Assembly: GCA_045837725.1 (NCBI GenBank)
Contig: JBEWZL010000126.1
Span: 124,001 to 188,000, forward strand
From: Vermamoeba vermiformis
Lineage: Eukaryota
Length of the DNA stretch: 64,000 nucleotides
Direction: 5' to 3'
In this document: piece after piece, positions 1,390 through 51,540 of the stretch
Position numbering within the stretch: the first letter of the stretch is position 1
Layout of the letters: each line of letters opens with the position of its first letter
Position numbers and translations under genes: made by a program
Notes under the pieces: generated by a model
The model's database searches: none
The model's input: only the letters and a program-made list of their open reading frames with translations
Told to the model about the DNA's origin: nothing

Positions 1390-4059
1390 ATGAGCGGACG
1401 TAAGATTACTCTCGCCGAAGTGGCCCAACACAACAAAGCCGATGACTTGTGGATTGTCGTCGCAGGCAAGGTGTATGATGTGACAAAGTTCTTGTCCGAA
1501 CATCCCGGTAAGTTCGTACTACGATAACGTATTTATAAATGATATATTCACCACAATTTAAACATTTTGGCACGTAATTTCGAAAGTGCAACGTTTCTTC
1601 AAAGAGTTTTTTTGGATTCAAATTACGTATTTAAAAATAATTTCAAGAATGAAGCCTTGTAGAATTAGTTATGAATTTACTACGATGATTTTTCGTAATA
1701 TTTCCAATGGAATCATTTATTTAAATGGATTTGTCTCCACAGGTGGCAAGAAGGTCCTCGTTAATGTCGCTGGCAAAGACGCTACCAATCAATTTAATCA
1801 ATTCCACAAAGCCGATGTATTAGACAAATACGCGCCCAAGCTTTACATTGGAGACGTCACCGAAGGAGATGCGCGTCACTCCAACTTGGATAACAAGAAA
1901 TCTGTTCGTACTAACCCCGAAGGAATGACAGTCGCTCCTATGCAATTTGCTGCTGCTTTAGGAGGTAAGCTCAACAAATAGTCGACAATTATGCCTTAAA
2001 TACAGTAGTTAGATGAATAGCCGCTATTTAAGTGCATATTTTACGTTATTGCTCAGAAAGTTTTTAGAAGGCGTTCTAATTAATGAAATACGTTGCTAAT
2101 GTAGTTTATAATAGAGGGCACGTTCGGCGACCTCGTTCCGTTTGGGGATCCGTCGTGGTACCAAACCTGGCACTCAACTTATTACAACGAATCTCACAAG
2201 AAATTCCGTGCTGCAGTCCGCGAGTTTGTTGAGAAGAACGTGATGCCGTTTGTTAACGAATGGGACATGAAGAAACATTTCCCTAGAGACTTGTTCAAAA
2301 AGTCGTATGAGGCTGGTGCGTGGATCTTTCATAATACCGCGATTCAAAGGAGTTTTCTAATATTCGATTATGGACTATAGGTATTTTGCCGAGCGGTGCT
2401 GGTGCTCCTTGGCAGACTGAATACGCTGGCACTCACATCGCTGGTGGTGTCAAGCCCGAAGAGTTTGATTACTTCCACGAGTTGATTGCCGTCGATGAGA
2501 TGTGCCGCTGTGGTGCTGCTGGTGTTTCCGCCAGTTTTGTTGGTCTTAGCATCGGTAAGCGAACCACACATACGCTGGATCTGCTCGCGTCCCTGGTCTT
2601 ACTAGTCAATTAGGCTTGCCTCCTGTCTTGAAGTTTGCCAACAAGGCACTCAAGGATAAGGTCGCTGGTCCTTGCTTGAAGGGTGACAAGATCATCTGCT
2701 TGGCTATCACTGAACCGTGGGCCGGATCTGATGTTGCTAACATTCGCACTGAAGCCAAGTTGACCGCTGACGGCAAGCACTACATTGTCAATGGCGAGAA
2801 GAAGTGGATCACTAACGGTAAGCGTTATGTCCAAAAATTAGTGGCCGTGCGCGGATGTGGAACAAGTGCAGTTCTAGCTAAAGTAGTGACCCGAACACGG
2901 CGTTGCAAAGCGTCTCGGGCACGACCACACTAACAAGAATGCACCGCTTCCCGTCCGATCAGCGAAGTTAAGCTTGTTCAGGCCTTCTTAGTACTGGGGT
3001 AGGAGACTACCTGGGAATCGGAGGTGTTGTGCTCTTATCTTTTTGCATTCGGCTCTTATTCCTTTTTTTGTTTTCGTGTGGGATTCTTTCTTTTTCCTAT
3101 TGAGATCCGGATGCGACATCCGCTCGTGGTTTACTTTTTTTTAACGTTACCAAATAATTAACTTCCGTATTCAGGTGTCTACGCCGACTTCTTCACCGTT
3201 GCTGTTCGCACTGGCGGTCCTGGTATGGAAGGCATTTCGCTTTTGTTGTTGGAGAAGGGTATGCCTGGCATTACCACCCGTGAAATGCACGTCAGCGGTC
3301 TCTGGGGCTCCGGCACCACTTATATTACCTTTGAGGACGTCAAGGTTCCTGTTGAGAACCTGATCGGCAAAGAGGGTCGTGGATTCAAGTACATTATGAG
3401 GTACGCATGACTATAATATTACGATCTAGATACTAAACTGACTGTTTTGTTTCTTATTAGTAACTTCAATCACGAGGTATGCATGACTATAATATTACAT
3501 TCATAGTAAACTAACTGTCTTAGCGATGGGGCATTATTGTTCAAGCCATCCGTTGTGCTCGTGTTTGTTACGAAGAGTCCTTCACTTACGCCCACAAGAG
3601 AAAGGCATTCGGCAAGAGATTGATTGACCAGCCTGTCATTCGTAACAAGCTGGCTCACATGGCGTACGTATTATTATTCCAAATTTTCGAAATTATGGCA
3701 GTAAATTGATCCGGTTAAATTTTAGTCGCCATATTGAGGCTTCTCAAAACTGGCTTGAGAACGTAACCTATCAAATGACCAAGATGGGTGAACAAGAGGC
3801 TAACATCAAGCTTGGTGGCCCTATTGCCCTCTTGAAGGCTCAAGCCACGCTCACCTTCGAGTTGTGCGCTCGTGAGGCCGCACAGGTTATGGGTGGTATT
3901 GCTTATACTATGGGCGGTCAGGGCGCTAAAGTTGAGCGATTAAACCGTGAAGTGCGTGGTTGTGCTATTCCTGGTGGCTCCGAAGAAATCATGCTCGATC
4001 TCGGCATGCGTCAAGCCATCAAGATCTACCAGATGACCTCAAAGATGTCAAAGTTGTGA
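1390..4059 (+). CDS. Cytochrome b5 domain-acyl-CoA dehydrogenase fusion, multi-exon
   Basis: N-terminal [15 protein letters not shown] cytochrome b5 heme motif. ACAD motifs [35 protein letters not shown] and IPGGSEEIM lie across spliced exons. Confidence 0.93.
2917..3035 (+). rRNA. 5S rRNA gene located in intron 2818-3174 of the acyl-CoA dehydrogenase gene
   Basis: 119 nt. Helix I GGGCACGAC/GTTGTGCTC; conserved CCCGTCCGATC, box A AGTTAAGC (2966-2973), loop E TTAGTACTG and ACCTGGGAA. Followed by a T5 run. Confidence 0.95.
3040..3044 (+). terminator. Pol III oligo-T terminator of the intronic 5S gene
   Basis: TTTTT a few nt after the 5S 3' end, with further T runs downstream. Confidence 0.7.
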
Positions 4060-26134: not shown

Positions 26135-27796
26135 TTATTTATCCTTCTTAGCTTTGGCTTTGCTAGCGCTAGTTCCTTGAACTCCTTTAGCGCTCTTGCC
26201 GTTAGCTTCAGATCCCTTCTTCGGATCTTCAGTCTTGCCACCAAAGAGTACTCCAGTAGCTACAAATTGTAATTAATACGGCACATTATTATTATAAATA
26301 AAAGTCGTCAAATAAGCAACAGAAATAATGCAAAATAATTGATCGAATTTTGGATCCGTAATAGAGGGCAATTGAAAGAAGTATTTGTTATGTATATATG
26401 ACGTACCTTGCTTGATAATTTCGGCGAACCAATAAGTATTCAACAAGCTGCTAATGACACCCATGGTAAAGAAGATCTTCCACATGATCTGATGGTACTC
26501 AGTCATTTCGCTCAATCGAGAGCTAGGAATCTCCCAAAGGAGATACAAGTAGTAATTTCCACCAATCATACGAATGACCAAGAACAACAGAGCAAAGCAG
26601 ACGGAAATGTAGAATTGGATCTTATGGAACGTATCGCCTTTGAAAAAGGAAATATTAGCGATCATATATTGATATTATAATGTATAATGGTATTATATAC
26701 CTCTCTTCTTAGTAGGATGAGATTTGAGCATTTCCATCATGACGAACGGATTCATAAACACAGTGGTAGCTTCGTACAACAAATAAGTCAAAGCGAAGTA
26801 GTGTAACATAGGCGGGAACTATATATAAACAATTAATAAGCGCTCTGCATAATCGCGTAATTATTTCAGACGGGCGCATCCAAAACGAATCTGAGTATTT
26901 TACTTTGGGTTGCGTTTCGTCTTAAGACTCCTTATAATACTCTAATTTACTTACCTGAACACCAAGAAACACGATTCCGCAATAAACTGCGTGCACTAAG
27001 AAGCCGTAACCAATAATGGACAAGTGCTTAATGCAGATCAACAGATCCCAAACAAAATAACCACCAGAAATCGCCGTTACTAGGTTGGATATATATGAAG
27101 TTTGGAAAATAACGTCCTATATAAGAAAACGTTATTAGATTGCTCTCGAAAAAATTAAGTCCGATCCGTAATATTTTATGACTTTAAGACAGGTCGTAGC
27201 GCGGTGTTATTATTGTCGTTATATGAATTGACAATTATAATGTATATATTAATTGCTATAAGATTAAATAGTGAAGTGTAGTGATAAACGCAAGTGATTA
27301 TGGAAATTATGGTAAATTACAGAATGACAGTTGACTTACCTTGGGTAATACGCCTTCAAAATAGAGACCATAAATAGACAATGGAAGGACTATGCAAGCG
27401 TGAACCATCGAAGCAACTCTACAAATAGACAGATGGCGGTCAGATATTTTCTTTGCATTCCAAAAATTGATAATTTTACGTATTTAACGAGGATATTATC
27501 ATGATTATCGGTATATAATATTAAAAATAATTAATCGGCAATTTGATTATTCAGATCGACCGTCATCTGAATTAATTTTCTAACCGCCGGCGGTGACTCT
27601 TCTCCAGATAATTAACATACCTTGTAGACCAATCAATTTGACTTGTTCTAGGCAAGTGCGCATATGTAGATGATAGGCGCTTGCTCAAGGACTCTCCAAC
27701 CACGTAGACGATCGTGAAGAACAAAGCGCTGGCAGCGATGCGAGGCAGAGTCGTGGATAAGTACTCCGCGTAATATTTATCGTGCACGCTGGCCAT
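26135..27796 (-). CDS. TLC (TRAM/LAG1/CLN8) domain membrane protein, TMEM56-like
   Basis: WSTR|VASMVH, GYFVWD, FLVH, YEATTVFMN, FLVIRM and LLNTYWFAEI motifs; C-terminal KKDK* dilysine ER-retrieval signal. Confidence 0.85.
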
Positions 27797-28227: not shown

Positions 28228-30356
28228 ATGGTGCTTGAAGCTACTATGATTTGGTGAGTAACAATTAATTTTCGGAGTGCTTCATCCGAATCAACTATTT
28301 GCGAGTGCCTGTATTAATCACAGCCTATTAGTATCGATAATTCCGAATGGATGAGAAACGGAGATTTTGCTCCCAATAGATTTGACGCACAAAAAGAGGC
28401 TGTCCATTTGGTTGCAGGAAGCAAGACTCAGTCAAATCCAGAAAGCAATGTTGGTCTAATTTCAATGGCTGGCCGCAAGTAAGCATAAATATCATTATTA
28501 TAATTTTTTGGGAATTATAGGAGGCTCAGGCAATTTAGAATTTTATTCACAATATTTTTCAAAAATAGAAAAACTTTTCGTCATCAAGCAAAATAATTTT
28601 TGTCGTGTAATATTTCGTTCGTATGTAATAATGTAGGCTAATATTTATTTTTTCTTCGTTAGCGTCGATGTATTAGTCACTTTGACTCAAGATCTTGGTA
28701 AAATTATGGCCGCCATTCAAAGCGTCAAGGTTGGTGGCGACTCAGACTTTGTTTCAGCTCTTCAGATCGCTCAGGTAAATAATTAAGGCTTAATTATTGA
28801 ATTACCGATTATTACGATTTTATTCAATTTTGGTTGGTAAATTCAAATTAAATTCAGAAATTACTTCCAACCACTATACTTATTTCATATCAATTCAATT
28901 ATCAGCATCCAATTTATCGCCCTATAATCGTTTTTCCAATTCGACGCTGGATGCGCAAAGTTTTTTTGTAACGGGCATAACTTAGTCCCAGCAACGATTG
29001 TGGATTGAAATATGCATCACAAGTCATATATACTAATCTAATGCATTTATAGCTCGCTTTGAAGCACCGTCAGAACAAAAGACAAGAACAACGAATCGTC
29101 ATGTTCGTGGGCAGTCCAGTCAAAGCCACCGAACAAGAACTCGTCAGACTTGGTGCTCGTATGAAGAAGAACCAAGTCGCCGTCGACATTGTCAACTTTG
29201 GCGAAGAAGTGTCGAACAAACAGAAATTAGAAGCCTTCATCAATGCTGTAAATAGCTCTGAGAACAGGTACGTGTCTTTTTGTTTTGTTTGCCGGAAAAT
29301 TTATAGAATTTATTTTATTCGCACGTACGTCGCTACGTTTTATCATCCCATAATAGTGTTGTGAGTGATTCGTTGCGCGTTTGACATTTAAAGAATAGAA
29401 ATTCCTTTTTTGGAAATAGATCTTTTGAGGGAGTCTTGAGAGACGAGTGTGTTAATTAATACGCATGCAGTTAGCATTAGGACTCCTATAAACACATCTT
29501 GATAACGCTCTTTATTATTTTGTCGGATCTTGACCTAATTTTTTTGTTACATCCAGTCACTACATTGAAGTCCCTGCTGGTCCTCATTTGTTGTCAGACG
29601 TTTTGCTCACGTCTGCCCTCGTTGCTGGTGAAGCAGGTCTCAGCGGTGCCTTGCAAGGAATGGGTGGTGCCGGTGGCGGTGGTTTTGAGTTCGGATTTGA
29701 TCCCGCTATGGATCCCGAACTTGCCTTGGCCATGCGTTTGTCTTTGGAAGAATCACAGCGTGGTGCTCAACCTCAAGGAGGAGATCAGCCTGCTGCTGAG
29801 GCTAAGCCCGCTGAATCAGCTCAACCTAAACGTAAGTACCTGTCTATGGCACTATCCCAGTTCAGATCTGCAAATGTTTTCTCGCTTAGCTTATGTAGAA
29901 TACCGTACTAATGGCAATATTACTGTTATAGCCGCCGAGGCCATGGAGACAGATGATGACGATGAGTTGTTGCAACAAGCCTTGGCCATGTCACGTCAAG
30001 AAAACAAACCACAGCCGCAAGAAACCAAGCCGCAAGCACAACCCGTTGATGCTATGGAGGACGATGACGACGAAGAATTGAGATTGGCTATGCAAATGTC
30101 ACAACAATCAAGTCAGCAGGTAAGCAACCGAGATAAGCAAGAGCACGAATCCGGATCTTTTTTCTACCCACCGCGTTTGAGGTGTACTAACAATTTGCCA
30201 ATATAGACTTCGAGCCAAACTCAACCACCACAACAGAGCGGAGATTTTATGGCTAGTGTGTTGTCTTCATTGCCGGGCGTCGATCCAAACGATCCGAACA
30301 TTAAAGGCATTTTGGAGGCTATGAAGAAGGACGAGAAGAAAGAAGATAAGAAATAA
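28228..30356 (+). CDS. RPN10: 26S proteasome ubiquitin receptor Rpn10/PSMD4
   Basis: [57 protein letters not shown], further UIMs and LPGVDPND. Confidence 0.96.
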
Positions 30357-30905: not shown

Positions 30906-33898
30906 ATGGCGACAACAAAGAACGAAAAGCCCAATGAACCAGTACGTACCATTGTTGGTATACTTTGTTAGGCCGACGACGCTAATTATTATTCATTACA
31001 GATTATCCTTCATTTTGAGTGGACAGCGAAAAAGAATGAAGATGTTGTACGTACACAATTGGATCCACATTTAATTTCGAGACGGGTGATTGACGCAGTA
31101 TTTTACAGGACACCGCTATCGCTGCATTGAAAGTATCGACGGATCATCAGTTAGCTCACTGCCCTGGAGTAGACACATACGCTTTCAGACGCGTAAATGC
31201 AAATACGATTCGTCTAACGGAGGTCTATCGTGACACGAAGACGTTTTGGTCGCACATCCCCAGCGGATCTTACGTCTCCGACAAGCTACAGTTTTTATTC
31301 GACACATCAATTCGTGACCATGCAACTGGTGTTGGTGTCGGACAACTTCCTGAAGGCATTGAAGCAACGGTGAAGCTGATTGGTGGTCATTCGTCCCCGC
31401 TCATGGCAGGATTTGTGCTCAACCCGTCATTTTCTCCGCTCAACATCAAGCCTGTCTTGCTCACTATGCTTATCAAGAATGGATTCGAAGAGAGCTCGCG
31501 AGATTTTGTTCTGAAAGCGTTGGATCCGCTCGTTAGTGCAGCAGCAAAAAATCAAGAAGTTCGAACCTGCGCAGTGTTTCATAATGAAAATGACGTCCAG
31601 CTCACCGTTATCTCGGCCTCAGATTCGGCTATCGCTTCAATTCTCACTTCAGCCAACTTGGATCCGCTTCGCAACCAGTTTCAGCTTGCTACAGAGCTCT
31701 GTGGTAACATTAGTGCGGAGTCTCACGAGCAGATATTGGCAACAGGTCTCGCCTTTGATACGAAGAAAGAACTAGATGCTGGATACATCCTTCACCCTGC
31801 TTGTTTTATTGCCACGAAACCCGAGTCGAACACGTCCTTGCAGCCATCGTCCCTCTCAGCGCCACCAACAACGGAGTTATTTACGCTTGTCATAGACCCT
31901 TATACGAAGGAGGCAACAGCTATTCGATTCGCTCAGAGTGCCCCAGGTCGTTCACCACATCAATACAAAGCAGGCACGCCTAGTCAAGTAGTGACGACTG
32001 AAGGGACCCTCGAAGTGCCCTTACTCCACATTGTGCGCAAACTTTCAGGCTCTGGAGGAACCGACCTTGAAATAGCCATTCCTAAACTCTTTGGCCTATT
32101 GGAACGATTGCGCTCGTGGCAACGGAGTGTTCTTCTGTTCAACCGTTTGTTTGACCATGGCGAGCAATTGACCGAAGAAGAACAGTACTTTGTCGAGACG
32201 TTTGTCGAGAATTTGAACAATGTTGGATATCCTCAACGAGCCAAAGACAAGCGCGTGAACATTGATGGCTTGGACGAGTTCATTCAGACGATTGAATGGG
32301 CCATGCGCGAGATCATTGAACCTGCCCGTGCCTCACTCGCAACAGCACACCAAGTCACGTACAAAGGCTTAATGGAAGCGTTTCCGATTGGCTCAATTGT
32401 CGTTGGACAAGCTGCTGGTCTCGGCGGGGCTCTGGTGGCCTATCGTGTCTTCGATTGCTACATGAGCACGCAGCGGTCCATGTTCGGCACGAGCAAGTAC
32501 ATCTTCACTCTTGGCCTCGAGTTCGTGGTCAACTTGGGCGCTCATTTTTGCGTGTGCAACTTTGAAGACAAGATTGAAGAGTTTGAAGGTGAACGTGACT
32601 TGGCGAGTCTGCCTTATGTGCCCTTGACATCACGTGCTAATGAACGATCAATGTTGATTTCTCGTGGCAAAGCTGTGGCCGAGCTTGGCGTCAAACCAGT
32701 GTACCGATCGTACGCGTCTGGTGCTTTCTTCGCTCATCTTGCAGGCAGCTCTAGCGGCGCAGCAGCTACCACTGGCGTGCATCAAGCAGGCTCAGGACGA
32801 TGCATGGTCGATAATGAACGAGGTCTGTTGCTTGGACACGCCCCTGGCGTTTCATACGATGGTGCAGGCATCGCTATTCAATCAACGATTAAAGTCTATC
32901 GTGTCGCTGTTCGTGCGTCACATGAAAACGAATCTGAAGCTGCCAAACAAGAACGCATTAAGAACGCACGACTACGCTTGTTCAAACACCTGCCAAGCCA
33001 CTTTGAAGTCATAACTTGGCCCGCGGTCGTGGCCTACAGCTTCACATGGAAGACTTGGGGTCACGTGCTCACGAGTGGCCTCAGCGAAGTTCAATTCAGC
33101 GACGAGCCGTGGAACCAACTTGTGCTTCCAAAACGAACCAAAGAACTTCTGTTTGCATCAGCTCTCTTCAATCTGAGCGGTGCTCCAGGCGTCGGTGATT
33201 TGATCAAAGGCAAATCTCAAGGCGCTTTGTATCTCTTGTACGGCCCTCCAGGCACCGGAAAAACTCTAACAGGTACGGATCCAAATTTCAATTTTATCAG
33301 GCAGGGGTCTTATTTAGTATTTTTTGCAGTCGAGGCTATTTCCGAGAAGTTCAAATTGCCACTTTACACGGTGTCTCTTGGTGAGCTCGGTACTGGTGCC
33401 CAAGAAGTTGATGCAGCGATCAACAACATCTTAGCACTTTGTGCACAATGGAAAGCAATCGTGTTGCTCGATGAAGGTGACGCATTGCTGGAACAGCGAG
33501 AGAAAGGCAAGCTGCAAATGAATTCATTGACTGGCGTGTTGTTGCGATCGTTGGAGAACTTTGACGGACAGCTGTTTATCACCTCGAACAGACTTCAACA
33601 CATTGACCGTGCTGTCCTGTCACGTGTCACTTTGGCTGTCAAATACGATGAATTAGACGCAGCTGCACGTGCTTGCATTTGGCGCAACACGCTCACTCGT
33701 GCGGGAGTGGACTTGTCAAATTTAGATACCGATGCTCTGGCTCAGTACGAGATCAGTGGCCGAGAGTTGTTGCACATTGTCAAGCTCGGATTGGCACTGG
33801 CATTCTATCACAAGTCACCGTTGACGCAAGAGCTCATTGTTGCTGCGTTAGAAGAGAGTCTCGAATTCAGATCTCACTTTCCTACAACGAGTTATTAA
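30906..33898 (+). CDS. AAA+ ATPase with a long N-terminal region (possible dimeric alpha-beta barrel/ABM-like domain)
   Basis: Walker A GPPGTGKT, Walker B LLDEGD, sensor TSNR and SRV. There are two short 5' exons and an in-frame intron near 33273-33329. Confidence 0.85.
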
Positions 33899-49100: not shown

Positions 49101-50221
49101 TTTCCAGATTCGTGTTCGCGTGTTCTCGTCGATACAGAGCTGTTCCTTTCCACAGCTTCTACCACGCTTTCAATGTGACACAGACTTTGTATCATTTCTT
49201 GACTGGCTGCGGTGCTTCAAAGGCCTTCGGTTCGTTGGAATTGCTGGCCATGGTTATTGCTACAATGTGCCACGATATGGATCATCCTGGTCTCAACAAC
49301 GATTTCCAACGCAAGGCTCACACGCGCATTGCTCAATTGCACAAAAAATCTATCTTGGAAAATCACCATTACTTGCAGGTACGTTGCAAAATAGCGGATG
49401 TGGATCGACTTTGGTGAACTAATTCTGATTCGTTTAAAGGCTATGGGTATCTTGGATAAGAATGAATTTAACATTTTGATCAATATGCCATCCGAACAAA
49501 GAGACCAAGTGCTTCTCTACGTTCGTGACTTGATTTTGGCGACAGATCTGTCTATGCACGGTTTAGTCATTAGCAAGTTGAAAGAGCGTCAAAAGGTCGT
49601 CAGCCGTTTGCTTCAAAAACAAAACTGCCACTTGTTGCTCGATCAAGAAGACAAGATCTTGTTGATGTGCTCGTTAGTCAAGTGCGCTGATTTGTCAAAC
49701 GAAATTCGCGAGCAATCTTTGGCCAAACAATGGGCCAAGCTGGTGCTCGTCGAATTCTTCAAGCAAGCCGATACTGAAAAAGAATTGAAATTAGAGACTG
49801 CTGCATTTATGGACAGGTACGCACTTTTTTCATTTACAAAAGGATCCGATCCTGGATCACGCTAACTTTGAATGATATGATATCAAGTGCTCGTACTAAT
49901 ATTGTTGATATCTATAGGACGAAGATTATCATTTCTAAAGAACAGTTGAATTTTATCGAAAAGTTGTGTATGCCCCTCTACACCGCGACAGTGGCGATCT
50001 TCCCGAAGATGGACAAGTGCATCAAACAAATGCAATCGAACAGAGACGAGTGGGATCGATTGTTGAACTCGTTCTTTGTCGATAAGTCCACGCTGTCCAA
50101 TCAGAGCATTTGGGAAGGCGACAAGAAGGAGAAGACACCTGAAGGCCAGAACTTGTCAACGACACTCGCCTCACGTGCTTCCAACTCGTTGCAGCCAACG
50201 ACCAAGGACAAGAAGAAGTAA
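46107..50221 (+). CDS. Class I cyclic nucleotide phosphodiesterase with an N-terminal SH3-like segment
   Basis: FHSFYHA, HDMDHPGLNN, ILENHH, ILATD, KCADLSN, EFFKQ and QLNFI. The upstream exon FHEGDVITLRKYKGDGLWKVEVNG resembles SH3. Confidence 0.9.
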
Positions 50222-50772
50222 TCTAAAAACGATTATCAAATTTATTCTATTCTAGCACTGCGGTGTTAGAATGCGTTGTTTGATAGTTAGTTTTTTTGTA
50301 ATTATTTCATTTTAGTCACGAACCAAAACCCGCAATATTGTATTTTTTAAAACCCTATTCTTGTCGCCAGTTTTAAAAAGGCTGGCGATAAGAAATTACT
50401 AAATAATAAAGTAAAATTTGTTGAACGCGATCTGATCTGGATCAGAGCGGATCCACTTCTTCGTTCAAGCTAATCGTTGCGTTTAAAAGCCATAGTATTT
50501 AACGCACAGCTAAGTCTTGTGGTTCATGAGATCATGCGCGGGCTTGTGACTTGCTTTGGTAGCCCTCCGATGATTGGCTGGTTTTTTGCTTGATAAAATT
50601 AATAAAACCGAAGCCTTTTTGTTTTCGTCTTCAAGCGTTTATTATTCCACTACTGCACCATCATAGCACCACCGAAGGTCGTTCATACGACCGTTCGTAG
50701 TCGTAGATGACTGGAACGTAAGGTAAGTCTCGAAACTGCACCGATCAAACAACAAATCCACCGAAAATATTT

Positions 50773-50835
50773 TGTTCATGATGTTTTTAGACTAGAGTTT
50801 ATGAAAAGGATGATTTTAATTTTTCGCTGAAGCCA
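50773..50835 (+). ncRNA. Box C/D snoRNA, snR78/SNORD52-like (LSU rRNA guide)
   Basis: C box ATGATGT 50778, guide TTAGACTAGAGT (antisense to conserved LSU ACUCUAGUCU), D' ATGA 50801, C' near 50809, D CTGA 50827. A perfect 12-bp flanking stem pairs 50765-50776 with 50835-50846. Confidence 0.85.
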
Positions 50836-51007
50836 ACAAAATATTTAAAATTAATTAACAATTTTTTGATATTTTTGAATCCCATCTGACTCGTTTGTTG
50901 TAGGATCCTGCGCGCGATGTAAGAAACTCTTTGGCGTAATCTCAAGGATGATTGAGCGAGAGGTAAGCATCACAACATTTCAAGCGAACAAAAATTGTTT
51001 CGGGATC

Positions 51008-51081
51008 TGCAGATGATAAAAATGGAATTACCGTCTGATTTTTGTGAAGACGAAAGCTTCTCTGGCACCAGAGATGATGCA
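51008..51081 (+). ncRNA. Box C/D snoRNA, snR77/SNORD65-like (SSU rRNA, double guide)
   Basis: C box ATGATAA 51013, guide TGGAATTACCG (antisense to 18S CGGUAAUUCCA), D' CTGA 51035, C' GTGAAGA 51044, second guide CTGGCACCAGA (antisense to 18S UCUGGUGCCAG), D ATGA 51074, and a terminal TGCA/TGCA stem. Confidence 0.88.
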
Positions 51082-51540
51082 TTACCCTCATTATTCTCTT
51101 ACATTTAAATCAATCGTCTTGATCGTTCAATATCTAATGACTTGTTTTCTTGACAGATGATTTCCAGCTCGATCCGCCTCGGTTGGCCACGGACTTGCTT
51201 ACATCAAAGCAGCTGATGCCAGTCGCATTGATGAAGGTTGATTACCCTTCTTCTGCGTGCTGTCACCTGCTCGCACATTACAAGTGTCCGTCCGATCCTG
51301 CTAAGATCTGACGTCGCTCGTGTTACTAATAAAAATGTTTCATTCAACACAAACACGTTTCAAATTTTATTCGCGTAGTGTAATTTGTTTGCACCTGCAG
51401 CAACAGAGGCACGTCCAAATGAGTCATACAATAACGTTTTTTTATTTTCTACACTCTTTGTCGTACAGTTTATTATAAATACTAGTGTCTATATATTATA
51501 AAAGTCATCGATGTGTGGCTGTGACTAGCTATATGATGAC

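What the first reader, a model, noticed from the sequence alone, without database searches (positions are those of the whole stretch)
50640..51350. Unannotated non-coding host gene with snR78-like then snR77-like snoRNAs in consecutive introns
Seen: an ORF-free gap holds two canonical introns, each containing one box C/D snoRNA with perfect rRNA antisense guides and terminal stems. Known, from recall: these guides match yeast snR78 (human SNORD52) and snR77 (human SNORD65), the first two members of the fungal snR78-snR72 cluster, in the same order. Inference: either an ancient snoRNA linkage retained in a protist, or a convergent arrangement in a GAS5-style host transcript.
Basis: partly seen in the sequence, partly recalled or inferred. 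Interest (0 to 1): 0.75.

Follow-up and report, generated by a model that had tools for sequence, protein, structure and literature searches.

The report
Two-snoRNA non-coding host gene in amoeba
This is a short, spliced, non-protein-coding gene of an amoeba whose two introns each carry a small RNA that guides methylation of ribosomal RNA, an ordinary kind of gene whose only unusual point is that the two RNAs sit in the same order as in a well-known fungal cluster.

Summary
Window 50662-51335 is a three-exon transcript with two GT..AG introns, 50723-50903 and 50963-51156. An RNA-derived contig (X1) is joined at both predicted junctions.

Each intron holds one box C/D snoRNA:
- snoRNA1 (about 50765-50846) has an antisense element matching the SNORD52/snR78 family. 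It forms 13 contiguous pairs with a conserved large-subunit rRNA site.
- snoRNA2 (about 51008-51082) matches snoR77Y/SNORD65/snR77. It forms 12 pairs with the small-subunit GCGGTAATTCCA site and has a second 11-pair element 5 nt upstream.

Both score below Rfam's gathering thresholds (24.6 of 45 bits; 31.7 of 52 bits).

The spliced RNA has no ATG ORF over 31 aa. In a related metagenome contig (L030) the snoRNAs are 91-95% identical but the exons only 43-55%, which is the signature of a non-coding host gene.

The organism is an amoebozoan. Two genes have Echinamoeba exundans as their closest named relative (76-79%).

The fungal cluster snR78-snR77-...-snR72 is already published as one snoRNA per intron of a non-coding host gene. 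Only two members are present here.

The linkage is rare elsewhere. It appears in 3 of 130 metagenomic snR77-like matches: one relative of this window, one fungal cluster, and one contig of unknown origin.

Ancient linkage is possible but unproven. Verdict: real, a new member of a known kind, moderate interest.

The parts
50592..50640 (+). Possible promoter region: an A/T-rich TATA-like stretch (50592-50607), then a pyrimidine tract CCTTTTTGTTTTCGTCTTC (about 50614-50632) that could be a 5'TOP-like start
   Evidence: Read from the sequence. This is inference only: no 5'-end data, and X1 shows no depth in the bins from 50400 to 50658.
50662..50722 (+). Exon 1 (the 5' limit is a minimum; the true start is unknown)
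   Evidence: X1 contig 1 covers 50662-50720 and joins to exon 2 with 0 mismatches.
50723..50903 (+). Intron 1, 181 nt, GTAAGT...TTGTAG
   Evidence: The joint is seen in the X1 contig.
50765..50846 (+). snoRNA1, box C/D, snR78/SNORD52-like, including its 12-bp external stem. C box 50778-84; D' guide 50787-99; D' box AUGA 50801-04; C' box 50810-16; U-rich D-side element 50813-26; D box CUGA 50827-30
   Evidence: - Rfam: SNORD52 24.6 bits, E=0.014, sub-threshold.
- Stem.
- 13 contiguous pairs with LSU GACTCTAGTCTAG of L140; the +5 rule points to a U.
- 17 of 22 eukaryotic LSU contigs have a site that pairs over 13 nt.
- 91% identical in L030.
- Covered by reads of related species R.
50904..50962 (+). 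Exon 2, 59 nt
   Evidence: X1 contig. Only 55% identical in L030.
50963..51156 (+). Intron 2, 194 nt, GTAAGC...TTGACAG
   Evidence: The joint is seen in X1, X22 (3 reads) and X23 (2 reads).
51008..51082 (+). snoRNA2, box C/D, snR77/SNORD65/snoR77Y-like. Stem UGCA 51008-11 / 51078-81; C box AUGAUAA 51013-19; D' guide 51023-34; D' box CUGA 51035-38; C' box GUGAAGA 51044-50; second antisense element 51062-72; D box AUGA 51074-77
   Evidence: - Rfam: snoR77Y 31.7 bits, E=0.0011, sub-threshold.
- 12 pairs with SSU GCGGTAATTCCA in 5 of 5 SSU sequences; the +5 rule points to a U.
- 11 Watson-Crick pairs with SSU TCTGGTGCCAG in 5 of 5.
- 95% identical in L030.
- In species R, similarity breaks off at 51003 and 51082.
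51157..51335 (+). Exon 3, with an AATAAA signal at 51328-51333 (the 3' end is approximate)
   Evidence: X1 contigs reach 51312. AATAAA is read and is kept in L030. The exon is 43% identical in L030.

Best explanation
An RNA polymerase II gene of an amoebozoan, related to Echinamoeba, makes a short, spliced RNA (probably polyadenylated) with no coding function. Its real products are the two box C/D snoRNAs released from its two introns, one per intron.

Each snoRNA would form a C/D kink-turn and assemble with the methyltransferase complex (fibrillarin, Nop56, Nop58, Snu13). It would then pair with pre-rRNA through the element upstream of box D'.
- snoRNA1 directs 2'-O-methylation of the large-subunit U equivalent to yeast Um2421 / human Um3904.
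- snoRNA2 directs 2'-O-methylation of the small-subunit U equivalent to yeast Um578 / human Um627, in the GCGGUAAUUCC loop.
- snoRNA2 also pairs, through a second element upstream of box D, with the rRNA segment 5 nt further 5'. This either helps binding or methylates a neighbouring G.

The snR78-like then snR77-like order is more likely an independent or unresolved arrangement than a proven relic.

**Shown:** splicing, anatomy, complementarity to generic eukaryotic rRNA, and conservation of the snoRNAs but not of the exons.
**Inferred:** snoRNP assembly, the methylation itself, polyadenylation, the start site, and the non-coding fate of the exons.
For: - **Splicing.** Both junctions are in an RNA-derived contig. 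Junction 2 is also in raw RNA-seq reads of a related species.
- **Family.** Sub-threshold but specific Rfam matches to SNORD52 and snoR77Y.
- **Boxes and stems.**
- **Targets.** The snoRNA1 guide forms 13 pairs with L140 LSU, with the +5 nucleotide a U. The snoRNA2 guide forms 12 pairs in 5 of 5 SSU sequences, with the +5 nucleotide a U. The contigs were confirmed as eukaryotic rRNA. 17 of 22 LSU contigs keep the snoRNA1 site.
- **Equivalent sites are methylated in an amoebozoan.** In Dictyostelium they are Um571 (CD21 = snR77) and Um2687 (CD22 = snR78) (PMC8817022 Table 1, passages).
- **Non-coding host.** The longest ATG ORF is 31 aa. Against L030, snoRNAs are 91% and 95% identical, exons 55% and 43%, and intron flanks 51-70%. 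No shared ORF.
- **Organism.** Echinamoeba exundans is the closest named relative for two genes, at 79% and 76%.
Against: - Neither snoRNA reaches Rfam's gathering score.
- The boxes are degenerate: snoRNA1 has D' AUGA, and snoRNA2 has C AUGAUAA and D AUGA.
- The snoRNA2 terminal stem is only 4 bp.
- Shuffled guides reach the observed pairing in 1-4% of trials.
- The organism's own rRNA could not be examined.
- No small-RNA data show mature snoRNAs. The reads over the snoRNAs may come from unspliced precursor.
- The 5' end is unknown, so a link to the upstream phosphodiesterase gene (stop codon at 50221) is not formally excluded.
- 1 of the 2 full-length LSU contigs (L160) lacks the snoRNA1 site.
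Confidence: 0.85

Rival explanations
1. The adjacency is a retained ancient linkage. The common ancestor of Amoebozoa and fungi (or an earlier one) already had snR78 and snR77 in consecutive introns of a non-coding host gene. This amoeba keeps the first two members of what became the fungal snR78-snR72 cluster.
For: - The two families, their order, the strand and the one-per-intron non-coding-host layout are the same as published for Euascomycetes, Basidiomycota and Rhizopus (PMC3596301, passages; PMC2780460, passages).
- The spacing from the snR78-like RNA to the snR77-like C box is similar. By the measure it is 233 nt in L007 (fungal cluster I: 78-77-76-75), 254 nt in L119 and 242 nt in L030, the window's relative. 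In the window, 224 nt separate the start of the guide core from the C box.
- Both families are traced to the last eukaryotic common ancestor (PMC3511168 table).
- The adjacency is rare in other sampled loci, so it is not a general by-product of clustering.
Against: - Only 2 of 7 cluster members are present. The gene ends after exon 3, and no other cluster member was found in 64 kb.
- By the loose search (within 1000 nt), 3 of 130 metagenomic snR77-like matches have an snR78-like RNA directly upstream: L030, L007 and L119. Of the 130, 86 have at least 400 nt of upstream sequence.
- One further contaminant locus, L184, has none.
- Two loci (L059, L087) have the families in the opposite order inside dense clusters. 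This shows that co-clustering arises in other ways.
- Dictyostelium box C/D snoRNAs are intergenic except one (PMC8817022).
- The title and abstract listing of PMC3511168 report ongoing intragenomic mobility of snoRNAs.
- By my rough estimate (inference), a genome with a few dozen adjacent snoRNA pairs has about a 10% chance of matching one of the roughly 12 ordered yeast cluster neighbours.
Confidence: 0.2
2. The three 'exons' are not a separate gene. They are either spliced 3'-UTR exons of the upstream cyclic-nucleotide phosphodiesterase gene, or they encode a micropeptide (24-31 aa ORFs).
For: - The 5' end was not mapped; X1 coverage starts at 50662.
- The phosphodiesterase ORF ends at 50221 on the same strand.
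- Short ATG ORFs exist.
Against: - An AATAAA-containing stretch follows the phosphodiesterase stop codon at about 50404-50412.
- X1 shows no depth in the bins from 50400 to 50658, although the tool warns that a hole proves nothing.
- The exons are 43-55% identical with indels in L030, and no ORF is shared.
Confidence: 0.07
3. The snoRNA-like elements are decayed or non-functional copies, or chance box-and-guide combinations.
For: - Degenerate boxes and sub-threshold Rfam scores.
- Modest shuffle statistics.
- The U-rich D-side element of snoRNA1 has no convincing target (56 of 300 shuffles do as well), and it changes next to box D in L030 and in species R.
Against: - The snoRNAs are 91-95% conserved while the surrounding intron and exon sequence has diverged.
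- Similarity in species R breaks off at the snoRNA borders.
- Both guides hit known, widely conserved methylation sites in the correct +5 register.
Confidence: 0.03

Closest known systems
Fungal snoRNA gene cluster I (snR78-snR77-snR76-snR75-snR74-snR73-snR72) in its intronic form, as in Neurospora crassa, Basidiomycota and Rhizopus (PMC3596301, PMC2780460)
   Same: - snR78-type then snR77-type snoRNA on one strand.
- One snoRNA per intron.
- Short, poorly conserved exons without a long ORF.
- D boxes CUGA or ATGA.
- Metagenome contig L007 shows the fungal form with similar spacing.
   Different: - Only two snoRNAs; the transcript ends after the second intron.
- The organism is an amoebozoan, not a fungus.
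- The second element of snoRNA1 shows no convincing target, whereas N. crassa CD5 combines the snR78 and snR72 guides.
Animal non-coding snoRNA host genes (UHG, GAS5 and the SNHG genes)
   Same: - A spliced transcript whose introns each carry one box C/D snoRNA.
- Exons are less conserved than the intronic snoRNAs.
- No meaningful ORF.
- A pyrimidine tract is present near the presumed start.
   Different: - Different snoRNA content. From recall, not tested here: human SNORD52 and SNORD65 lie in two different host genes.
- A 5'TOP start, polyadenylation and nonsense-mediated decay are not shown here.
Rfam SNORD52 / snR78 / snoZ157 (clan CL00063) and snoR77Y / SNORD65 / snR77 (clan CL00057)
   Same: - The same antisense cores: AGACUAGAGU before D', and UGGAAUUACCGUCUGA.
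- The same predicted target nucleotides.
- The same box order (alignments).
   Different: - Scores of 24.6 and 31.7 bits are below the gathering scores of 45 and 52.
- Outside the guides and boxes the sequences are unrelated, as is usual for distant snoRNA orthologues.
Dictyostelium discoideum CD22 (LSU Um2687) and CD21 (SSU Um571) (PMC8817022)
   Same: - The same supergroup, Amoebozoa.
- The same two target sites, with the methylations measured by RiboMeth-seq.
   Different: - Dictyostelium box C/D genes are reported as intergenic mono- or polycistrons, with only CD38 intronic.
- Whether CD21 and CD22 are neighbours is given only in supplements that I could not read.

Membership tests
Box C/D snoRNA (methylation guide) | Box C (RUGAUGA) near the 5' end and box D (CUGA) near the 3' end, able to form a kink-turn next to a terminal stem | tested here: met
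   - snoRNA1: AUGAUGU / CUGA with a 12-bp stem.
- snoRNA2: AUGAUAA / AUGA with a 4-bp stem and a 3-nt bulge, a geometry that fits a kink-turn.
- Both snoRNAs have degenerate boxes: snoRNA1 in D' and C', snoRNA2 in C, C' and D.
Box C/D snoRNA (methylation guide) | An antisense element of 10 nt or more ending next to box D or D', with the target nucleotide opposite the fifth position | tested here: met
   13 pairs (LSU) and 12 pairs (SSU), each with a U at +5, against eukaryotic rRNA contigs. The organism's own rRNA is not available.
Box C/D snoRNA (methylation guide) | A stable 60-100-nt RNA bound by fibrillarin, Nop56, Nop58 and Snu13, with the target methylated | not testable with these tools
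   No small-RNA or RiboMeth-seq data were available. RNA-seq reads of species R cover the regions but do not show mature ends.
Rfam SNORD52/snR78 clan CL00063 | Score at or above the family gathering threshold | tested here: not met
   24.6 bits against 45. The L030 copy scores 27.2 bits.
Rfam SNORD52/snR78 clan CL00063 | The D' guide targets the LSU U equivalent to yeast Um2421 / human Um3904 | tested here: met
   The guide core is identical to the SNORD52 consensus (alignment). It pairs with GACTCTAGTCTAG in L140 LSU. Site equivalence comes from the tables in PMC3511168 and PMC8817022.
Rfam snoR77Y/SNORD65/snR77 clan CL00057 | Score at or above the family gathering threshold | tested here: not met
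   31.7 bits against 52.
Rfam snoR77Y/SNORD65/snR77 clan CL00057 | The D' guide targets the SSU U equivalent to yeast Um578 / human Um627 | tested here: met
   UGGAAUUACCGU-CUGA is identical to the family consensus. It pairs with GCGGTAATTCCA in 5 of 5 SSU sequences. Equivalence comes from the literature tables.
Non-coding snoRNA host gene (UHG/GAS5 type) | A spliced transcript with one snoRNA per intron | tested here: met
   Both junctions are in the X1 contig, and junction 2 is in X22 and X23 reads.
Non-coding snoRNA host gene (UHG/GAS5 type) | No conserved ORF, and exons less conserved than the intronic snoRNAs | tested here: met
   Longest ATG ORF is 31 aa. Exons are 43-55% and snoRNAs 91-95% identical to L030, with no shared ORF. 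Exon 1 is missing from L030.
Non-coding snoRNA host gene (UHG/GAS5 type) | A 5'TOP start, polyadenylation and rapid decay of the spliced RNA | tested here: inconclusive
   A pyrimidine tract and an AATAAA signal are seen in the sequence only. There are no end-mapping data.
Fungal cluster I (snR78-snR72) | snR78 followed directly by snR77 on the same strand | tested here: met
Fungal cluster I (snR78-snR72) | Followed by snR76, snR75, snR74, snR73 (and snR72) in the same transcription unit | tested here: not met
   - The gene ends after intron 2 with AATAAA.
- The whole-window Rfam E-value scan finds no such family.
- My own box-plus-guide scan of the window finds only chance-level hits.
- By contrast, L007 shows snR76 (40 bits) and snR75 (57 bits) downstream.
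Fungal cluster I (snR78-snR72) | Occurs in a fungus | tested here: not met
   The closest named relative of two window genes is the amoebozoan Echinamoeba exundans (79% and 76%). Fungal hits are at 38-39% and about 62%.

The most novel reading that the evidence does not exclude
The snR78-then-snR77 arrangement, in consecutive introns of a non-coding host gene, is a surviving piece of a snoRNA host gene that already existed in the common ancestor of Amoebozoa and Opisthokonta. That would make it one of the oldest preserved gene linkages between non-coding RNAs. It would also show that GAS5/UHG-type host genes predate the split of these supergroups.
Probability: 0.2. Interest if true: 0.65.

Novelty: new member of a known kind. 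Interest (0 to 1): 0.4.

Why it matters
It adds an amoebozoan example of a non-coding, one-snoRNA-per-intron host gene. The one amoebozoan snoRNA survey I read (Dictyostelium, PMC8817022) reports almost only intergenic snoRNA genes. My searches for Vermamoeba or Acanthamoeba snoRNA host genes found nothing relevant.

It also gives a concrete, cheap test of whether snoRNA linkages can survive for more than a billion years: look for the 78-77 pair in other Amoebozoa and in early-branching relatives of animals and fungi.

For annotation, it explains an apparently empty gap and predicts two rRNA methylation sites in this amoeba.

Tried and rejected
- **Whole genome.** Not held. The organism's own rRNA and a genome-wide search for snR76-snR72 homologues were therefore impossible.
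- **Rfam at gathering thresholds.** Only the 5S rRNA gene was found.
- **Sequencing-run search.** No run holds more than 0.09 of the sampled words. Only X1 and the raw-read runs X21-X23 of a related species were laid.
- **Earlier findings of this scan.** None for this genome, by sequence or by words.
- **SNORD75-like hit at 28839-28896(-).** 23.5 bits, E=0.081. On reading it lacks convincing boxes, so I rejected it.
- **Box-plus-guide scan hit at 27714.** This is ordinary sequence, not a snoRNA.
- **D-side element of snoRNA1.** Its best pairings are G-U rich and no better than 56 of 300 shuffles, so no target is assigned.
- **SNORD70 match to snoRNA1.** 25.4 bits, E=0.37. It rests on the stem and boxes only, so I rejected it.
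- **Protein atlas on the phosphodiesterase exon.** It gave the family but no useful taxon.
- **Acyl-CoA dehydrogenase search.** It placed the organism only after the cluster look-up.
- **Arabidopsis paper PMC7464842.** It gave nothing on the linkage of snoR77Y and snoR37.
- **Supplements of PMC8817022.** These hold the genomic positions of CD21 and CD22. They are closed and may bear directly on the linkage question.
Full report
**1. What is in the sequence**

The gap after the phosphodiesterase gene (stop codon at 50221) holds two canonical introns:
- intron 1, 50723-50903 (181 nt, GTAAGT...TTGTAG);
- intron 2, 50963-51156 (194 nt, GTAAGC...TTGACAG).

Joining exon 1 (start unknown), exon 2 (50904-50962) and exon 3 (51157 to about 51335; AATAAA at 51328-51333) gives an RNA whose longest ATG ORF is 31 aa.

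**2. Expression and splicing**

No public run holds the region well; the best share of sampled words is 0.09. I laid four runs on 50400-51500.

- *Run X1 (Logan contigs, labelled a guessed RNA run).* One 151-nt contig lies on 50662-50720, 50902-50960 and 51155-51187. The tool notes both joints can be read 2 nt to the right. That gives exactly 50722/50904 and 50962/51157, with GT..AG ends. The three pieces carry 0, 0 and 1 mismatches. A second contig covers 51162-51312 with 6 differences.
- *Runs X21-X23 (raw RNA-seq of a coded organism R).* Most laid reads are under 99% alike, so R is a related species. They cover snoRNA1, exon 2 and snoRNA2. They show junction 2 in 3 reads (X22) and 2 reads (X23).
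- *Borders in species R.* Similarity breaks off at 50760, 51003 and 51082, which are the borders of the snoRNAs.

Not shown: junction 1 in species R, the 5' end, the poly(A) site, and mature snoRNA ends.

**3. The two snoRNAs**

*snoRNA1:*
- perfect 12-bp stem, 50765-76 / 50835-46;
- C box AUGAUGU (50778-84);
- antisense element ending at D' box AUGA (50801-04);
- C' box AUGAUUU (50810-16);
- D box CUGA (50827-30).

*snoRNA2:*
- 4-bp stem UGCA/UGCA (51008-11 / 51078-81);
- a 3-nt bulge, then C box AUGAUAA (51013-19);
- antisense element ending at D' box CUGA (51035-38);
- C' box GUGAAGA (51044-50);
- D box AUGA (51074-77).

PMC3596301 (passages) states that fungal cluster snoRNAs use CTGA or ATGA as box D.

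Rfam finds nothing here at gathering thresholds. In E-value mode on 1.3 kb it finds exactly the predicted families:
- snoR77Y at 51007-51085: 31.7 bits, gathering score 52, E=0.0011;
- SNORD52 at 50774-50833: 24.6 bits, gathering score 45, E=0.014.

On the whole window the E-values are 0.053 and 0.67. The alignments show identity in the boxes and the guide cores.

**4. Targets**

No genome is held for the window, so its own rRNA could not be used.

I searched bacterial and archaeal assemblies for a place where the complements of the two snoRNA2 elements lie within 20 nt of each other. This gave at least 43 contigs, all with a 28-nt match, meaning a spacing of 6 nt in the pattern. Nine of these contigs were checked, and all nine carry eukaryotic SSU rRNA. 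Two (L140, L160) also carry a full LSU rRNA.

Results against these rRNAs:
- snoRNA2 D' element: 12 pairs (11 Watson-Crick + 1 G-U) with GCGGTAATTCCA in 5 of 5 SSU sequences. The +5 nucleotide is the U.
- snoRNA2 D-side element (51062-72): 11 Watson-Crick pairs with TCTGGTGCCAG in 5 of 5. The +5 nucleotide is a G, 17 nt upstream of that U.
- snoRNA1 D' element: 13 pairs (11 Watson-Crick + 2 G-U) with GACTCTAGTCTAG in L140 LSU. The +5 nucleotide is a U.

L160 has a divergent sequence at the LSU site. A wider sample of 22 LSU-bearing contigs was selected on flanking sequence only. In it, 17 pair over 13 nt, 2 over 7 nt and 3 over 4 nt.

In the shuffle control, shuffled guides reach the observed score in:
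- 8 of 300 for the snoRNA1 D' element;
- 11 of 300 for the snoRNA2 D' element;
- 4 of 300 for the snoRNA2 D-side element;
- 56 of 300 for the snoRNA1 D-side element, for which I assign no target.

The literature tables equate these sites:
- SSU: Um578 (yeast, snR77) = Um627 (human, HBII-135) = Um580 (Arabidopsis, snoR77Y) = Um571 (Dictyostelium, CD21).
- LSU: Um2421 (yeast, snR78) = Um3904 (human, U52) = Um2411 (Arabidopsis, snoR37) = Um2687 (Dictyostelium, CD22).

Sources: PMC8817022 Table 1, PMC3511168 and PMC2780460 Table 1; I read passages only.

**5. Non-coding host**

One metagenome contig, L030, is a relative with the same layout. It starts inside snoRNA1. Identity to the window by segment:

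| Segment | Identity |
|---|---|
| snoRNA1 | 91% |
| snoRNA2 | 95% |
| Rest of the introns | 51-70% |
| Exon 2 | 55% |
| Exon 3 | 43%, with indels |

Both splice sites of intron 2, the acceptor of intron 1 and the AATAAA signal are kept in L030, which starts downstream of intron 1's donor. No ORF is shared. This inverse conservation is the hallmark of UHG/GAS5-type host genes.

A TATA-like stretch and a pyrimidine tract lie upstream of the first covered base. Whether transcription starts there is inference.

**6. Organism**

- For the AAA ATPase ORF (31094-33895), the best named relative is a transcriptome protein of Echinamoeba exundans, at 79% identity. The next named relatives are at 43% or less (Mastigamoeba, ichthyosporeans, chytrids and others).
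- For the acyl-CoA dehydrogenase exon, a cluster at 76% also contains an Echinamoeba exundans protein. Fungal hits are at about 62%.

So the window is from an amoebozoan near Echinamoebida.

**7. The linkage question**

PMC3596301 (passages) defines fungal cluster I as snR78-snR77-snR76-snR75-snR74-snR73-snR72. It states that in Euascomycetes, Basidiomycota and Rhizopus all of these are intronic, in transcripts with little coding potential. PMC2780460 (passages) calls the Neurospora hosts UHG-like. The layout seen here is therefore the published fungal layout, but truncated to its first two members and found in an amoebozoan.

To see how common the adjacency is, I scanned metagenome contigs for snR77-type RNAs, using a C box followed by the 16-nt guide plus D' box. 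Of the 130 matches, 86 have at least 400 nt of upstream sequence.

*snR78-type element within 1 kb upstream: 3 matches.*
- L030, the window's relative.
- L007, where Rfam also finds snR76 (40 bits) and snR75 (57 bits, above threshold) downstream. This is fungal cluster I.
- L119, a GC-richer contig of unknown origin. Its snR77-type RNA also carries the CTGGCACCAGA element.

*snR78-type element downstream: 2 loci.*
- L059 and L087 have one 0.9-1.2 kb downstream, inside dense clusters of other families. The order there is the opposite.

*One more locus.*
- L184, from a bacterial assembly, has none.

The adjacency is therefore rare. Among these loci it is seen in the window's lineage, in a fungal cluster and in one unplaced contig.

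*In favour of common descent:* the same order, the same strand, a similar spacing (224-254 nt) and the same host type.

*Against it:*
- only two members are present;
- no further member lies in this window;
- Dictyostelium snoRNA genes are intergenic;
- snoRNAs are known to be mobile;
- a rough chance estimate (my inference) is about 10% per genome that some adjacent pair matches one of the roughly 12 ordered yeast neighbour pairs.

I put ancient linkage at about 0.2.

**8. Verdict**

The feature is real. It is a non-coding host gene with two intronic box C/D snoRNAs that should guide two widely conserved rRNA methylations. It is a new member of a known kind, in a supergroup where such host genes are little documented. 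The evolutionary reading is open and cheaply testable.

Noticed in passing
window 51062-51072 (snoRNA2), and loci L001-L120: snoRNA2 has a second antisense element directly upstream of box D. It forms 11 Watson-Crick pairs with SSU TCTGGTGCCAG, only 5 nt upstream of the D' target. The +5 rule points to the G 17 nt upstream of the methylated U. That is one position 5' of the yeast Gm562 / human G611 equivalent, which in yeast is guided by snR40 (PMC4344503, passages). Among 96 unique metagenomic snR77-type RNAs, 16 carry such an element in the register that would hit the Gm562 equivalent, and 6 carry it in the window's register. Dictyostelium shows no methylated G there (PMC8817022 Table 1).
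   Followed up: partly
window 2917-3035 (+): The 5S rRNA gene (104.7 bits) lies between two exons of a cytochrome-b5 / acyl-CoA dehydrogenase fusion gene on the same strand. tblastn of P0258 places one exon at 2580-2861 and the next at 3171-3476. The 5S gene therefore sits inside an intron of about 310 nt.
   Followed up: partly
L059 and L087 (metagenome contigs): These are dense clusters of many box C/D snoRNAs. An snR77-type RNA comes first and an snR78/Z157-type RNA follows 0.9-1.2 kb downstream. Between them lie sub-threshold matches to families including U31, SNORD24, snR61 and snR60/Z15. The two families are thus co-clustered in the opposite order in other, unidentified eukaryotes.
   Followed up: no
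L184:1440-1690: A contig filed under a bacterial metagenome-assembled genome carries an snR77-type snoRNA inside a GT..AG intron that begins right after an ATG. This is a eukaryotic contaminant, and it has no snR78-type neighbour.
   Followed up: no
L121-L183 (genome contigs): Sixty-three contigs in bacterial and archaeal genome assemblies match patterns drawn from eukaryotic rRNA. All nine that I checked carry eukaryotic SSU rRNA, most with 5.8S or LSU rRNA as well, and two hold group I introns. This points to eukaryotic contamination of those assemblies.
   Followed up: partly
window 50360-50392 and 50427-50455: Two inverted repeats lie between the phosphodiesterase stop codon and the host gene: TCGCCAG...CTGGCGA, and a GATCTGATCTGGATCAGAGCGGATC palindrome-like stretch. 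Their role was not examined.
   Followed up: no
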